A DNA stretch of 32,000 nucleotides from an uncultured Candidatus Pelagibacter sp. (GTDB lineage Bacteria > Pseudomonadota > Alphaproteobacteria > Pelagibacterales > Pelagibacteraceae), in assembly GCA_905612435.1 (NCBI GenBank), contig CAJQRZ010000003.1:1-32000 (forward strand), written 5' to 3'. Positions within the stretch are counted from its first letter, which is position 1, and every line of letters starts with the position of its first letter. This document shows positions 24,215-27,167 of this stretch, one piece after another. The position numbers and the translations under genes are program-made. Under the pieces are notes generated by a model. The model searched no databases. It had not been told where the DNA came from and saw nothing but the letters and a program-made list of their open reading frames with translations.

Positions 24215-25705
24215 ATGAAATTGTTTTTTATACTCGGCAATCAATTATTTCCATTAAAATATCTAGACCGCTTCAAAAAGGACCACTCTTTTTACATGGT
24301 AGAAGACTATGAATTATGCACTTATGAAAAGCATCATAAGCAAAAGATACTGCTATTTCTATCTTCCATGAGGTCTTACGCGGACAACCTTAAGAAGAAT
24401 AAATTTAAACTAGATTATATAAAAATTGAAGACAAAGAATTTAAAGATGATTATTTCAAAAAATTAATGAAAATAATTGTTAAAAAAAAAATAACAGAAA
24501 TTTCAAGTTTTGAAGTTGAGGATAAATTTTTTGAAAAGAAAATTTCACAATTTTTAAAAAAAGAAAAAATTAATTGGAATGTCTTTCAAACCCCAATGTT
24601 TTTAAATTCAAGAGATGAGTTCAAAAATTATTTAGAAAAATCAAAAAAACCTTTTATGGCAACATTTTACAAGGAGGTTCGTAAAAAATCTGGAATATTA
24701 ATGGGAGCAGATGGAAATCCTATTGGAGGTAAATGGAGTTTTGATGAAGATAACAGAAATAAGTTGCCAAAAGACATATCTATACCAAAATTTCCAAAAA
24801 TAAATGAAACTAGCCATACTAAAAAATTAAAACCTATTATTGAAAAATTATTTAAAGACCATCCTGGAAGTTTAAGTAATTTTTGGTTTGCAACTGAATA
24901 TGATGATGTTGTTAAGCTTTTAGATTTTTTTATTAAAGAAAAATCAAATTTATTTGGTGATTATGAAGATGCTGTTAATCAAAAAGATAATATTTTATTT
25001 CATAGCGCATTAAGTCCTTACATAAATTTAGGCTTAATTACTCCTGAATTTGTAATTCAAAAGATTTTAGAATTTCATAAAAAACATAAAATTAGAATGA
25101 ACTCGCTGGAAGGCTATATTCGTCAGGTAATTGGTTGGAGAGAGTTTATGCGTGGAATTTATCAAGGTTATTCAGATGAAATGGAAAAAAAAAATTTTTT
25201 TAAACATAATAGAAAAATGAAAAAGTCTTGGTATGAAGGCACAACAGGTTTACCCCCACTAGATTATGCAATTAAAAATGCAGTCAATTATGGCTGGTCT
25301 CATCATATTGAGAGGCTGATGATTTTGTCAAATATAATGAACCTTTGTGAGGTTAAACCAACTATTGCTTACAAATGGTTCATGGAAATGTTTGTGGACT
25401 CATCTGAATGGGTGATGGTTCCCAATGTTTATGGAATGGGATTATTTAGTGATGGAGGTATTTTTGCTACCAAACCATACATCTGTGGATCAAGTTATTT
25501 TATGAAAATGATGGATTTTAAAAAAGGGGAATGGTGCAATACGATGGATGGTTTGTACTGGAGATTTATAAATAGAAATAGACAATTTTTTTTAAAGAAC
25601 CCCAGACTATCAATGATGGTTTATGTTTTTGATAAAATGAAAGATGAAAGAAAAAAATTGATTTTGTCAGAAGCCGATAAATTTATTAAAGCAAATACAG
25701 CATAA
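24215..25705 (+). CDS. cryptochrome/photolyase-family protein of the 'deoxyribodipyrimidine photolyase-related' (FeS-BCP / (6-4) photolyase-like) group
   Basis: 496 aa. GGKWSFDEDNR, LFHSALSPYINLGLITP, GWREFMRG, YGWSHHIERLMILSN and SSEWVMVPNVYGM fit this family. It is followed by a DUF2256 gene, a known association. Confidence 0.8.
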   Translation: MKLFFILGNQLFPLKYLDRFKKDHSFYMVEDYELCTYEKHHKQKILLFLSSMRSYADNLKKNKFKLDYIKIEDKEFKDDYFKKLMKIIVKKKITEISSFEVEDKFFEKKISQFLKKEKINWNVFQTPMFLNSRDEFKNYLEKSKKPFMATFYKEVRKKSGILMGADGNPIGGKWSFDEDNRNKLPKDISIPKFPKINETSHTKKLKPIIEKLFKDHPGSLSNFWFATEYDDVVKLLDFFIKEKSNLFGDYEDAVNQKDNILFHSALSPYINLGLITPEFVIQKILEFHKKHKIRMNSLEGYIRQVIGWREFMRGIYQGYSDEMEKKNFFKHNRKMKKSWYEGTTGLPPLDYAIKNAVNYGWSHHIERLMILSNIMNLCEVKPTIAYKWFMEMFVDSSEWVMVPNVYGMGLFSDGGIFATKPYICGSSYFMKMMDFKKGEWCNTMDGLYWRFINRNRQFFLKNPRLSMMVYVFDKMKDERKKLILSEADKFIKANTA

Positions 25706-25839
25706 TGAAAAAAGAGAACTTACCTTCAAAAATTTGTACTATTTGTAAAAAAACTTTTGTTTGGCGAAAAAAATGGAAGCTTAATTGGGCTAGAGTTAAG
25801 TACTGTTCCAAGAAGTGTTCTCGAACTTATTTATTTTGA
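25705..25839 (+). CDS. DUF2256-type zinc-ribbon mini-protein (44 aa)
   Basis: Found by hand and absent from the track. MKKENLPSKICTICKKTFVWRKKWKLNWARVKYCSKKCSRTYLF fits the CxxC...WRKKW...W..VKYCS..C pattern of DUF2256. It has a TAATG overlap with the photolyase-related gene. Confidence 0.75.
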   Translation: MKKENLPSKICTICKKTFVWRKKWKLNWARVKYCSKKCSRTYLF

Positions 25840-25887
25840 CATTATAAATAAAATATGGTCTAAGAATTTAGCGCTGAGTTTAATTAA

Positions 25888-25922
25888 ATTGCAGAGCGCT
25901 TTAAAAATCCTGCTAAAGCGAT
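25888..25922 (+). promoter_or_regulatory. SAM-II-like riboswitch aptamer (H-type pseudoknot)
   Basis: GCAG (25891-94) pairs with CTGC (25910-13). CGCTTT (25897-902), lying in that loop, pairs with AAAGCG (25915-20). It contains the TGCTAAAGC box and is followed by an intrinsic terminator. A tandem SAM-II/SAM-V arrangement upstream of bhmt is described for Pelagibacter. Confidence 0.6.
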
Positions 25923-25927
25923 TATTC

Positions 25928-25957
25928 AACCACCGCTTTAGTCGGTGGTTTTTTTTT
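25928..25957 (+). terminator. intrinsic terminator (expression platform of the first aptamer)
   Basis: Stem AACCACCG / CGGTGGTT (8 bp), 7-nt loop, then a run of 9 T (two of them also in the stem). CGCTTT at 25934-39, in the left arm/loop, can alternatively pair with AAAGCG at 25915-20 as an antiterminator. Confidence 0.75.
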
Positions 25958-25974
25958 GAAAGTTTCAATTAAAA

Positions 25975-26035
25975 ATCGGGCATTTGAACCGTATTGTGCA
26001 CCCTGCATTTGCTAAAGCACTAAAAAGGAGAGAAG
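25975..26035 (+). promoter_or_regulatory. SAM-V-like riboswitch aptamer abutting a Shine-Dalgarno sequence
   Basis: A second TGCTAAAGC box lies at 26010-18. Stem GTGC (25996-99) / GCAC (26017-20) is followed immediately by TAAAAAGGAG (GGAG 26027-30). I could not fold the full pseudoknot by hand, so the boundaries are approximate. Confidence 0.5.
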
Positions 26036-26080
26036 AAGCTGTTTATGTTTTGCACCCTCTGTCTAAACATTCCTGGTTTC

Positions 26081-26104
26081 TTTTCTCCACTAGACTGGAG
26101 AAAA
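26081..26104 (+). promoter_or_regulatory. SD-sequestering hairpin directly upstream of the bhmt start codon
   Basis: Perfect 9-bp stem TTTTCTCCA / TGGAGAAAA with loop CTAGAC. The right arm contains the bhmt SD (GGAG 26097-26100) and ends 1 nt before the ATG at 26106. Confidence 0.55.
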
Positions 26105-26105
26105 A

Positions 26106-27167
26106 ATGACAAAAAATATATTAAAAGAAAGATTAGATAAAGGACCTGTAATATGTGCAGAGGGTTTTTTATTTGAAATTGAAAGACGTGGTTATATGGC
26201 ATCGGGGGAATTTGTTCCCATGGTTTCATTAGATCATCCAGAAGTATTAGAAAATCTACACAGAGAATTTCAGCATGCAGGATCAGATATTGTAGAAGCC
26301 TTTACTTATAATGGACATAGAGAAAAAATGCGAGTTATTGGAAAAGAAGAACTTCTTGAACCATTAAATCGTTCAGCTCTGAAAATAGCAAAAAAAGTTG
26401 CCTTAGATATACCTAAGGGGAGCAAACCAAATTTAATGGCAGGAAATATTTCTAATTCAAATATTTGGAAACATGACGACAAACAATCCCAAAAAGAAGT
26501 TGAAGAAATGTTCTCAGAAATGATTGGTTGGGCTGTTGAAGAAGGTGCTGATATGTTAGTTGGTGAAACTTTTTATTATGCAGAAGAAGCCTTTAAAGCA
26601 TTAGAGGTAATGAAAAAAACAGGTTTACCAACAGTGTTGACAATATCTCCAATGGGTGAAAACAAAATGAGAGATGGAAAATCCGTTATTGATACCTGTA
26701 AAGAACTTGAACAACTTGGTGCAGATGTTGTTGGTTTGAATTGTTTTAGAGGACCAGCAACCATGTTTCCTTTTTTAAAAGAAATCAGAGAAGCTGTTAA
26801 ATGTCATGTTGGAGCTTTACCTATTCCTTATAGAACAAGTCAAGAATTTCCTACATTCTTTAATCTACCTGACAGAAGTAATTGTGAATGTCCATCACCT
26901 CATGGAAGAACATTTCCAACTGCACTAGATCCACATTTTTGCAATAGATATGAAATTGGTAAATTTGCAAAGAATGCATATGCACTAGGCATTAATTATA
27001 TTGGTGTGTGTTGTGGAGCCAACCCAATGTTGATAAGAGAAGTAGCGGAGTCAGTTGGCTTAAATGTTCCAGCAAGTAAATACCGAGAAAATATGGAAAA
27101 TCATTTTATGTATGGAAAAAATAAAAGAATTCCAAAACACATGACTGATTATGGAGACAAGGCTTAA
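26106..27167 (+). CDS. bhmt: betaine-homocysteine S-methyltransferase (homocysteine S-methyltransferase family)
   Basis: ILKERLDKGPVICAEGFLFEIERRGYMASGEFVPMVSLDHPEVLENLHREFQHAGSDIVEAFTY parallels animal/bacterial BHMT N-termini. GLNCF and GVCCGA are the zinc-ligand Cys motifs. An in-frame TAG at 26091 fixes the start at 26106. Confidence 0.9.
   Translation: MTKNILKERLDKGPVICAEGFLFEIERRGYMASGEFVPMVSLDHPEVLENLHREFQHAGSDIVEAFTYNGHREKMRVIGKEELLEPLNRSALKIAKKVALDIPKGSKPNLMAGNISNSNIWKHDDKQSQKEVEEMFSEMIGWAVEEGADMLVGETFYYAEEAFKALEVMKKTGLPTVLTISPMGENKMRDGKSVIDTCKELEQLGADVVGLNCFRGPATMFPFLKEIREAVKCHVGALPIPYRTSQEFPTFFNLPDRSNCECPSPHGRTFPTALDPHFCNRYEIGKFAKNAYALGINYIGVCCGANPMLIREVAESVGLNVPASKYRENMENHFMYGKNKRIPKHMTDYGDKA

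What the first reader, a model, noticed from the sequence alone, without database searches (positions are those of the whole stretch)
26027..26140. Possible riboswitch-to-uORF-to-hairpin relay controlling bhmt translation
The SD next to the second aptamer (GGAG 26027-30) lies 76 nt upstream of the bhmt ATG, too far to serve it. bhmt has its own SD (26097-26100), buried in a perfect 9-bp hairpin (26081-26104) that ends 1 nt before the start codon. A 31-codon uORF (ATG 26045, MFCTLCLNIPGFFSPLDWRKNDKKYIKRKIR, stop 26138-40) runs through the hairpin and past the bhmt ATG in another frame. Ribosomes on the uORF would melt the hairpin and expose the bhmt SD. SAM-dependent occlusion of the upstream SD could then be transmitted by translational coupling. 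Two caveats apply: GGAG-to-ATG spacing for the uORF is long (14 nt, though the purine run GGAGAGAAGAAG extends closer), and the uORF may be fortuitous.
Basis: inference. Interest (0 to 1): 0.6.

Follow-up and report, generated by a model that had tools for sequence, protein, structure and literature searches.

The report
Strand-swap relay behind SAM-V riboswitch

Summary

The aptamer's GGAG plus the purine run (X1, 26027-41) pairs over 15 bp with the pyrimidine strand (Y, 26074-88). Y also masks the bhmt SD (X2, 26096-104), so the two helices cannot form together.

- **X1:Y conservation.** In 64 distinct SAR11 leaders X1:Y is 93.5% paired, and 10 of 14 pairs show compensatory changes. No shuffle of 500 reached the observed values.
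- **Y:X2 conservation.** It is conserved but covaries little.
- **Folding.** With the aptamer tail free, the bhmt SD is 89% unpaired. With the tail held through GG, it is 7% unpaired.
- **Published support.** Deleting that GGA abolishes SAM binding.

This is a classic anti-anti-SD / anti-SD / SD platform, so far undescribed for SAM-V in the papers I could read.

The uORF is found in only 30 of 63 unique leaders and is absent from several of the window's nearest relatives. Where an ATG does sit near the aptamer, its frame is always open across the hairpin, so ribosome assistance in some lineages is not excluded.

Verdict: a new variant of a known kind, of moderate interest.

The parts
25861..25937 (+). 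SAM-II-like first aptamer of the tandem (context)
   Evidence: Only sub-threshold Rfam matches: RF00521 at 16.9 bits and RF01726 at 17.5 bits. The position and the following terminator fit the published SAM-II/SAM-V tandem of bhmT (PMC5069961, PMC5367253).
25928..25958 (+). Intrinsic terminator after the first aptamer (context)
   Evidence: An 8-bp G+C-rich stem at 25928-25950 followed by a T-run. Two terminator-like sites were found against 0.2 expected.
25968..26033 (+). SAM-V aptamer
   Evidence: RF01826 at 74.8 bits (gathering score 41), full-length match.
26027..26041 (+). X1: the aptamer's 3' GGAG plus purine run. It acts as an anti-anti-SD, a mimic of the bhmt SD.
   Evidence: It pairs with 26074-88 in the minimum-energy fold. 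In register it pairs with Y in 60 of 60 unique leaders at the first 5 positions. 10 of 14 pairs covary. GG 26027-28 is the part that forms P2a on SAM binding in the published model, and deleting GGA abolishes SAM binding (PMC6061858).
26045..26070 (+). Apical hairpin of the ON helix, presenting the conserved C-rich loop CCCUC (26055-59). It contains the uORF ATG (26045-47), which is paired with CAU 26068-70.
   Evidence: Fold. The motif CCCUC(UU) recurs in most leaders, including distant genera. Its role is only partly explained.
26074..26089 (+). Y: the pyrimidine anti-SD strand, shared by both helices
   Evidence: It pairs with X1 or with X2.
26081..26104 (+). OFF-state sequestering hairpin (Y:X2), 9 bp
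   Evidence: -10.3 kcal/mol. In 64 distinct leaders it is 84.6% paired against 60-66% for slid controls, and its core 5 pairs are 93-98% paired.
26097..26100 (+). True bhmt Shine-Dalgarno (inside X2, 26096-104), 5 nt before the ATG
   Evidence: Sequence. P(unpaired) is 0.89 with the aptamer tail free and 0.07 with the tail held through GG.
26106..27167 (+). bhmt (homocysteine S-methyltransferase family), 353 aa
   Evidence: PF02574 at 7.5e-37. 75-93% identity to SAR11 homologues with the same N-terminus. An in-frame TAG lies at 26091-93.
26045..26140 (+). It is present but not conserved, and is probably dispensable here.
   Evidence: for the ORF. for conservation.

Best explanation
The stretch between the SAM-V aptamer and bhmt is an RNA-only expression platform built from three strands.
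- **X1** (26027-41) is the aptamer's 3' GGAG plus a purine run.
- **Y** (26074-89) is a pyrimidine strand ending in CUCC.
- **X2** (26096-104) carries the real bhmt SD. X1 and X2 are look-alikes and compete for Y.

**Without SAM,** the aptamer tail is free, and Y is transcribed before X2. X1 pairs with Y in a 15-bp helix capped by a small hairpin. The bhmt SD and ATG are then single-stranded and translation is ON.

**With SAM,** the A-tract and GG of X1 are drawn into the SAM-V triplex and P2a. The X1:Y helix loses its G-C clamp, Y refolds onto X2 as the 9-bp hairpin, and translation is OFF.

The aptamer's 'SD' is therefore not a ribosome site for bhmt. It is an anti-anti-SD.

**Status of each step.**
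- Shown: the three complementarities, their mutual exclusivity, their conservation and covariation, and the predicted energetic switch.
- Taken from the literature: SAM binding needs the GGA.
- Inferred: that SAM actually flips the helices, and that this controls translation in vivo.
For: 1. **Fold.** The minimum-energy fold pairs 26027-41 with 26074-88 at -25.3 kcal/mol, z = -2.85. The hairpin alone is -10.3 kcal/mol. Both helices use 26081-88.
2. **Switch in silico, this window.** P(unpaired) of the bhmt SD is 0.89-0.90 with the tail free, 0.07 with the tail held through GG and 0.00 with it held through GGAG. The two states differ by 4.5 kcal/mol.
3. **Switch in silico, 63 unique leaders.** With the tail held, the median is 0.00. 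The energy gap has a median of 1.6 and a range of 0-7 kcal/mol, which is near-isoenergetic, as a ligand-driven switch needs.
4. **Covariation of X1:Y.** In 64 distinct rows it is 93.5% paired against 79.0% for shuffles (0 of 500 as high) and 48-71% when slid. 10 of 14 pairs have double-sided changes. 129 such cells were seen against 36 expected (0 of 500). The covariation score is 0.456 against 0.191. The closer set gives the same result.
5. **Register test not fitted to X1:Y.** Anchored on the aptamer GGAG and on the Y:X2 hairpin, Y pairs with both X1 and X2 at positions 0-4 in 60 of 60 leaders and at positions 5-7 in 47-51 of 60. Three-way compensations occur: L122 has GGAGAUAGU, AUUAUCUCC and GGAGAUAAU, and L040-42 and L148 have G:C:G at position 6.
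6. **Distribution.** The pattern is in 91 of 401 family genomes, against 0 for the reversed-pattern control, in 4 of 19 genera. It precedes bhmt, a metY-like gene and another methionine-related gene.
7. **Same genomes, other genes.** SAM-V before metY and osmC has its GGAG 9-12 nt from the ATG. Only bhmt carries the 73-138 nt insert.
8. **Published link.** The bhmT SAM-V 52-mer occurs verbatim in ten relay-type loci (seven distinct leader sequences), 73-76 nt from the ATG. Removing its 3' GGA abolishes SAM binding (PMC6061858).
Against: - In about half of the leaders the equilibrium fold with a free tail still buries the SD. Median P(unpaired) is 0.15 for leaders with a uORF and 0.57 for those without. 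The ON state there would need co-transcriptional order of folding or help from ribosomes.
- The Y:X2 hairpin shows little covariation: 15 double-changed cells against 9.7 expected, reached by 10 of 500 shuffles. Its support is therefore mainly conservation.
- Alignments A4 and A5 were fitted to the X1:Y structure, and the sequences are related, so the shuffle counts overstate significance.
- The SAM-V pseudoknot was modelled only as a 'held' tail.
- There are no experimental data on this part of the leader. The published 177-nt 'full-length' construct would end about at the aptamer's SD if it starts at the SAM-II aptamer (my inference from its length).
Confidence: 0.75

Rival explanations
1. 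SAM-V gates ribosome loading at its own GGAG. Ribosomes translate the 31-codon uORF, melt the 9-bp hairpin and so expose or couple to the bhmt start.
For: - The uORF exists and runs through the hairpin and past the ATG.
- In all 8 sequence families that carry an ATG within 30 nt of the aptamer GGAG, that frame is open through Y and X2. From the same position, the +1 frame is closed in 13 of 13 representatives. The crude probability is p about 0.001-0.01.
- The stops fall +4 to +53 nt from the main A (excluding L125/L126, whose ATG is in frame with the gene).
Against: - The uORF is absent from 33 of 63 unique leaders and from 5 of 13 families entirely.
- Some families have stops in all three frames of the apical region, for example L021.
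- Among the window's nearest relatives, L156/L157 and L013 lack a start at that place.
- The spacing from GGAG to ATG is 14 nt here, and the ATG is paired in the apical stem.
- The model gives no reason for the 10 covarying X1:Y pairs beyond the GGAG.
- The peptide is not conserved except where the RNA is.
Confidence: 0.07
2. Hybrid model. The RNA strand swap is the core, but ribosomes that load at a vestigial start next to the aptamer in low SAM help to open Y:X2. This help would be essential in lineages where the hairpin is stronger than X1:Y and marginal in this window.
For: - Leaders with a uORF have lower predicted SD accessibility with a free tail (median 0.15) than leaders without one (0.57). 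Mann-Whitney p = 0.004-0.005, not corrected for relatedness.
- ATG-bearing frames are always open.
- The L117 family keeps exactly the SD-ATG of the direct-type leader L080 (GGAGAAGUAGAUGA, spacing 6) in front of the relay.
Against: - In this window the RNA-only switch is already strong, 0.89 to 0.07, and the spacing is 14 nt.
- The correlation may reflect a few related families.
- ATGs inside X1 are also expected if X1 arose as a copy of the SD-ATG region, as in the g5 leaders. There X1 is GGAGAAGAUGAAC and X2 is GGAGAAAAAAUGAAC, and both pair with Y.
Confidence: 0.15
3. The hairpin over the bhmt SD is a constitutive or otherwise controlled attenuator, for example of temperature or mRNA stability. 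The X1:Y helix is a structural spacer without a switching role, and SAM control of bhmt rests on the upstream SAM-II terminator alone.
For: - A SAM-II-like aptamer with a terminator precedes the leader.
- Some bhmt leaders carry only SAM-II (L034-39).
Against: - The two helices share the same 8 nucleotides.
- X1 begins exactly at the nucleotides needed for SAM binding.
- X1 and X2 change together with Y.
- The two folds are near-isoenergetic across 63 leaders.
Confidence: 0.03

Closest known systems
E. coli thiM TPP riboswitch expression platform (anti-anti-SD / anti-SD / SD; Winkler et al. model as summarised in PMC2018614)
   Same: It uses the same three-strand logic. A strand that belongs to the aptamer pairs with the anti-SD when no ligand is bound, which leaves the SD free. 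Ligand binding claims that strand, and the anti-SD then masks the SD.
   Different: Here the anti-anti-SD is itself an SD look-alike (GGAG plus purines), seemingly a copy or relic of the ribosome site that other SAM-V switches occlude directly. The aptamer class is an H-type pseudoknot usually described as having no separate expression platform.
Canonical SAM-V (and translational SAM-II) riboswitches: direct occlusion of the SD in P2a/triplex (PMC6061858, PMC2704228)
   Same: The aptamer is the same (RF01826, 74.8 bits). The same 3' AAAAAGGAG tail is captured on SAM binding. It controls methionine-cycle genes in SAR11.
   Different: [quoted passage not shown] Here the tail is 76 nt from the ATG, and the occluded GGAG is not the gene's SD. 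In the same genomes metY and osmC keep the direct arrangement.
Published tandem SAM-II/SAM-V bhmT leader of 'Ca. Pelagibacter ubique' HTCC1062 (Poiata et al. 2009 as cited in PMC5069961, PMC5367253, PMC11508383)
   Same: It is the same locus type: a SAM-II-like aptamer, a terminator, SAM-V, then bhmt. The published 52-nt bhmT aptamer occurs verbatim in relay-type relatives.
   Different: The papers I could read draw the SAM-V-adjacent SD as the bhmT ribosome site. They probe constructs (52 nt and 177 nt) whose lengths imply an end at or near that SD. None mentions the downstream relay. I could not read Poiata 2009 itself.
Translational coupling through an upstream ORF that melts a start-site hairpin (general leader-ORF coupling)
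   Same: A uORF overlaps the hairpin and the main start. In some lineages the uORF stop overlaps the next start. In the g5 metY leader an ORF from the ATG inside X1 ends in ATGA on the start of the 15-codon ORF, whose TGA then overlaps the metY ATG (ATGGCUGA).
   Different: The uORF is not conserved across leaders that keep the RNA relay. The SD-ATG spacing is poor in this window. There is no evidence of translation.

Membership tests
SAM-V riboswitch (Rfam RF01826) | Match to the covariance model above the gathering score, covering the full aptamer | tested here: met
   74.8 bits against 41, model positions 1-66 of 66, at 25968-26033.
SAM-V riboswitch (Rfam RF01826) | An SD in the aptamer's 3' tail that is the ribosome site of the regulated gene, with the start codon within about 10 nt | tested here: not met
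   76 nt lie between the GGAG and the bhmt ATG. bhmt has its own GGAG 5 nt before the ATG. Direct-type leaders show 7-14 nt from the first G of the GGAG to the ATG.
SAM-V riboswitch (Rfam RF01826) | Selective binding of SAM | not testable with these tools
   Published for a bhmT aptamer that occurs verbatim in relay-type relatives (PMC6061858). The window's own aptamer differs at a few positions.
Three-strand translational expression platform (anti-anti-SD / anti-SD / SD, thiM type) | An anti-SD strand complementary to the SD region of the regulated gene | tested here: met
   26081-89 pairs with 26096-104, 9 bp, -10.3 kcal/mol. It is present in all unique leaders tabulated.
Three-strand translational expression platform (anti-anti-SD / anti-SD / SD, thiM type) | The same anti-SD strand is complementary to a strand that is part of the aptamer, so that the two helices exclude each other | tested here: met
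   26027-41 pairs with 26074-88, and both helices need 26081-88. X1 starts at the GG that the SAM-bound aptamer uses.
Three-strand translational expression platform (anti-anti-SD / anti-SD / SD, thiM type) | Evolutionary support (compensatory changes) for both alternative helices | tested here: inconclusive
   Support is strong for X1:Y: 10 of 14 pairs, with 0 of 500 shuffles as high. It is weak for Y:X2: 3-4 of 10 pairs, with 10 of 500 shuffles as high for cells. A few three-way compensations occur.
Three-strand translational expression platform (anti-anti-SD / anti-SD / SD, thiM type) | Ligand-dependent exchange of the helices and a change in translation | not testable with these tools
   Only thermodynamic modelling with the tail constrained was possible.
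uORF-mediated translational coupling | A uORF start codon with a ribosome site at functional spacing | tested here: not met
   14 nt lie between the GGAG and ATG 26045. The ATG is paired in the apical stem of the ON fold.
uORF-mediated translational coupling | The uORF (start plus open frame across the hairpin) is conserved among relatives that keep the hairpin | tested here: not met
   13 of 41 and 30 of 63 unique leaders have it. Five of 13 families have none. The nearest relatives are mixed.
uORF-mediated translational coupling | Evidence that the uORF is translated | not testable with these tools
   No ribosome profiling or proteomics is at hand. Indirect hint only: ATG-bearing frames are always open.

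The most novel reading that the evidence does not exclude
SAR11 runs one expression platform in two modes. In some lineages the SAM-V signal is passed on purely by RNA strand exchange. In others, where the SD hairpin outweighs the anti-sequestering helix, the relic start codon next to the aptamer is still used. SAM then gates a short uORF whose ribosomes unzip the hairpin. That would be a riboswitch feeding an RNA relay that is assisted by translation, with the window's 31-codon uORF as a weak example of the second mode.
Probability: 0.2. Interest if true: 0.7.

Novelty: new variant of a known kind. Interest (0 to 1): 0.5.

Why it matters
**It revises a standard example.** The bhmT SAM-II/SAM-V leader of Pelagibacter is the textbook tandem riboswitch acting at two levels. 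SAM-V is presented as a switch whose aptamer directly hides the gene's ribosome site.

- In the bhmT leaders of many SAR11 genomes the hidden GGAG is not the ribosome site at all. This includes leaders that carry the exact published aptamer.
- It is a decoy copy that competes with the real site for a masking strand.
- Structural and biophysical work on this leader has, judging by construct length, stopped about 75 nt short of the start codon. How ligand affinity maps onto gene output may need re-examination.

**It shows how a platform can evolve.** A 'platform-less' pseudoknot riboswitch can gain a modular expression platform by duplicating or stranding its SD. The same module sits before at least three methionine-related genes in four SAR11 genera.

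**It is a compact natural design** for non-inverting signal relays in synthetic riboswitches.

Tried and rejected
1. **Earlier bhmt start.** Rejected: an in-frame TAG lies at 26091-93, and homologues share the N-terminus.
2. **The hairpin as a terminator.** Rejected: no T-run follows on either strand.
3. **Other Rfam families in the gap.** Only chance-level matches were found.
4. **RNAalifold on a plain MAFFT alignment.** It found only 5 hairpin pairs, because indels in the apical part put the strands out of register. I replaced it with a covariance-model alignment and with a register analysis anchored independently of X1:Y.
5. **The 138-nt L019/L045 leaders as a two-stage cascade.** Rejected: folding shows one relay with a stem-loop of roughly 70 nt inserted between Y and X2.
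6. **The 45-48-codon frame in L046/50/58/69 as a conserved small protein.**
   - Substitutions fall 67/51/71 by codon position, with 35 synonymous against 106 non-synonymous codon differences.
   - There is therefore no sign of constraint on the peptide.
   - My bhmt control in that call was misaligned and is not used.
7. **The CCCUC(UU) loop motif as a general partner of the X1 remainder in the OFF state.** This holds in some families only, so the question is left open.
8. **Reading Poiata et al. 2009.** The paper is not held.
9. **Earlier notes of this scan.** Nothing on the relay.
Full report
**Observation.**

The window carries the known SAR11 arrangement upstream of bhmt.
- A weak SAM-II-like aptamer lies at 25861-25937. 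It gets only sub-threshold Rfam scores.
- A terminator follows at 25928-25950 plus a T-run.
- A full SAM-V aptamer lies at 25968-26033, at 74.8 bits against a gathering score of 41.

The ORF at 26106-27167 is a homocysteine S-methyltransferase (PF02574, 7.5e-37). An in-frame TAG at 26091-93 fixes its start.

- GGAG at 26027-30, 76 nt before the ATG.
- A second GGAG at 26097-100.
- A perfect 9-bp hairpin, 26081-89 with 26096-104, at -10.3 kcal/mol, z = -2.68.
- A 31-codon ORF from ATG 26045 to the stop at 26138-40.

**What was missed.**

Folding 26020-26125 gives, as the minimum-energy structure, a 15-bp helix between 26027-41 and 26074-88. The first strand is the aptamer's GGAG plus the purine run. 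The helix is capped by a small hairpin that presents CCCUC in its loop (-25.3 kcal/mol, z = -2.85).

This helix and the SD hairpin both need 26081-88, so they exclude each other. I call the three strands X1 (26027-41), Y (26074-89) and X2 (26096-104).

- With the aptamer tail free, the bhmt SD is unpaired with probability 0.89.
- With the tail constrained through GG, it is 0.07.
- With the tail constrained through GGAG, it is 0.00.
- The two states differ by 4.5 kcal/mol.

**Relatives.**

A protein-guided scan gave 80 SAR11-type bhmt loci. Their leaders fall into classes:
- About 47 are relay-type like the window, with 70-83 nt from the aptamer's GGAG (first G) to the ATG. Two of these (138 nt) carry an extra stem-loop in the Y-X2 loop.
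- 14 are direct-type, with the SAM-V GGAG (first G) 7-14 nt from the ATG. One of these, L008, has a protein 93% identical to the window's.
- 4 have a 45-48-codon open frame that starts at the SAM-V SD.
- The rest have SAM-II only or nothing.

In five complete genomes the SAM-V copies before metY and osmC are direct (9-12 nt), and only bhmt has the insert.

A covariance model of the X1:Y helix found the module in 26 of 151 family genomes, the window's own included. A sequence pattern found it in 91 of 401, the window's own included, against 0 for a reversed control. The hits come from 4 of 19 genera. The module also precedes a metY-like gene and another methionine-related gene.

**Covariation.**

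*X1:Y helix.* On 64 distinct rows:
- It is 93.5% paired, against 79.0% after shuffling (0 of 500 as high) and 48-71% when the partner is slid.
- 10 of 14 pairs show changes on both sides.
- 129 compensated cells were seen against 36 expected (0 of 500).
- The closer set of 43 rows gives the same picture.

Those alignments were fitted to this helix, so I also used a register defined only by the aptamer GGAG and by the Y:X2 hairpin.
- In 60 unique leaders, Y pairs with both X1 and X2 at positions 0-4 in all 60.
- At positions 5-7 it does so in 47-51.
- Three-way compensations occur. L122 has GGAGAUAGU, AUUAUCUCC and GGAGAUAAU. L040-42 and L148 have G:C:G at position 6.

*Y:X2 hairpin.* It is conserved but covaries little, as expected for an SD and its mask.
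- Overall it is 84.6% paired, against 60-66% when slid.
- Its core five pairs are 93-98% paired.

Across 63 unique leaders, holding the tail buries the SD (median P(unpaired) 0.00). The energy gap between the folds has a median of 1.6 kcal/mol and a range of 0-7.

**Link to experiments.**

- The published bhmT SAM-V 52-mer occurs verbatim in ten relay-type loci. One of them, L106, has coordinates that fit the HTCC1062 intergenic region of Meyer et al. In all ten the ATG lies 73-76 nt from the GGAG.
- Removing the 52-mer's last three nucleotides, GGA, abolishes detectable SAM binding (PMC6061858). These are the first three of X1. SAM binding and X1:Y pairing therefore compete for the same bases.
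- The papers I could read draw this GGAG as the bhmT ribosome site. Their constructs are 52 and 177 nt long, which implies they end at or near that GGAG.
- I found no description of the downstream relay. I could not read Poiata et al. 2009.

**Mechanism proposed.**

This is a thiM-type three-strand platform.
- *Without SAM,* X1 (the anti-anti-SD) holds Y (the anti-SD), and the bhmt SD is free.
- *With SAM,* the aptamer takes the A-tract and GG of X1, Y folds onto X2, and translation is blocked.

The logic is non-inverting, so it preserves the OFF-switch behaviour of SAM-V.

X1 looks like a copy or relic of an SD-start region.
- In the g5 leaders, X1 (GGAGAAGAUGAAC) and X2 (GGAGAAAAAAUGAAC) are near-duplicates.
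- The L117 family keeps the exact SD-ATG of the direct-type L080 in front of the relay.

**The uORF.**

*Evidence against a conserved role:*
- An ATG ORF that starts within 30 nt of the aptamer GGAG and reads to the second SD occurs in 13 of 41 close leaders and in 30 of 63 in the wider set.
- Five of 13 families have none.
- The window's nearest relatives are mixed. L155 has ATG and L158 has GTG. L156/157 have no start at the window's ATG position, and L013 has only a distant TTG.
- 17.6% of shuffled window leaders have such an ORF.
- In this window the spacing is 14 nt and the ATG is paired in the apical stem.
- The upstream GGAG is either in the aptamer or in X1:Y, so it is never free at equilibrium.

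*Two observations that keep a ribosome-assisted variant alive:*
- In all 8 families with such an ATG, its frame is open across Y and X2.
- Leaders with uORFs have weaker predicted RNA-only ON states, with a median SD accessibility of 0.15 against 0.57 (p about 0.004, uncorrected for relatedness).

I rate the hybrid model at 0.15.

**Limits.**
- Nearest-neighbour folding ignores the pseudoknot, Mg2+, kinetics and ribosomes.
- For roughly half of the leaders the free-tail equilibrium still masks the SD, so co-transcriptional order (Y emerges before X2) or ribosomes may matter.
- The sequences are related.
- No experiment covers this part of the leader.

**Verdict.**

This is a new variant of a known kind of expression platform, attached to a riboswitch class thought to work by direct SD occlusion. 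Interest is moderate.

Noticed in passing
L046, L050, L058, L069 (leader upstream of match start 1201): In a bhmt clade 75-79% identical to the window's protein, a 45-48-codon frame (MSKMKYQVNNCS...) starts 3 nt after the SAM-V GGAG, and its end overlaps the bhmt ATG. The frame stays open in four divergent sequences. Substitutions show no codon-position bias (67/51/71) and are mostly non-synonymous (106 against 35). The stretch also contains X1/Y-like complementary blocks (AAUGAGCAA / UUGCUCAUU).
   Followed up: partly
L107, L110-L116, L118, L152, L154 (genus g5, metY-like gene): The SAM-V plus relay module precedes a metY-like gene. The ATG served by the second SD opens a 15-codon ORF (MNETIRETVRRKING) whose TGA overlaps the metY ATG (ATGGCUGA). 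metY has its own AAGGAGG. A further ORF from an ATG inside X1 ends in ATGA on the second start. This looks like a chain suited to translational coupling.
   Followed up: partly
window 26055-26061 and the apical loops of most relay leaders: A conserved C-rich motif, CCCUC(UU), is presented in a hairpin loop, for example UUAAAC-CCCUC-GUUUAA in L151 and L153. It resembles an anti-SD. In predicted OFF folds it pairs with the AAGAG(G) remainder of X1 in some families only. Its function is unexplained.
   Followed up: partly
L019, L045, L088, L104, L140-L144, L147: These are relay leaders of 138 nt. A stem-loop of roughly 70 nt, itself starting with GGAGGG, is inserted in the loop between Y and X2, so the sequestering hairpin closes over a long insertion.
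   Followed up: partly
L008 (1061 = match start): A bhmt 93% identical to the window's protein has the direct arrangement, with the SAM-V GGA about 12 nt before the ATG. The relay has therefore been gained or lost between close relatives.
   Followed up: no
window 25861-25937: The first aptamer of the tandem scores far below Rfam's thresholds for SAM-II families (16.9 and 17.5 bits against 36 and 44), although it sits where the published SAM-II aptamer of bhmT lies.
   Followed up: no
literature (PMC5069961, PMC6061858): Reported affinities of the bhmT SAM-V aptamer differ widely: 120 uM, quoted from Poiata 2009, and 0.5 uM for the minimal 52-mer. If the older construct included strand Y, competition from the X1:Y helix could explain the weaker value. 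I could not check the construct.
   Followed up: no
window 25705-25839: A 44-codon DUF2256 zinc-ribbon mini-gene (PF10013, 2.6e-17) lies directly upstream of the riboswitch leader and overlaps the stop of the photolyase-like gene.
   Followed up: no
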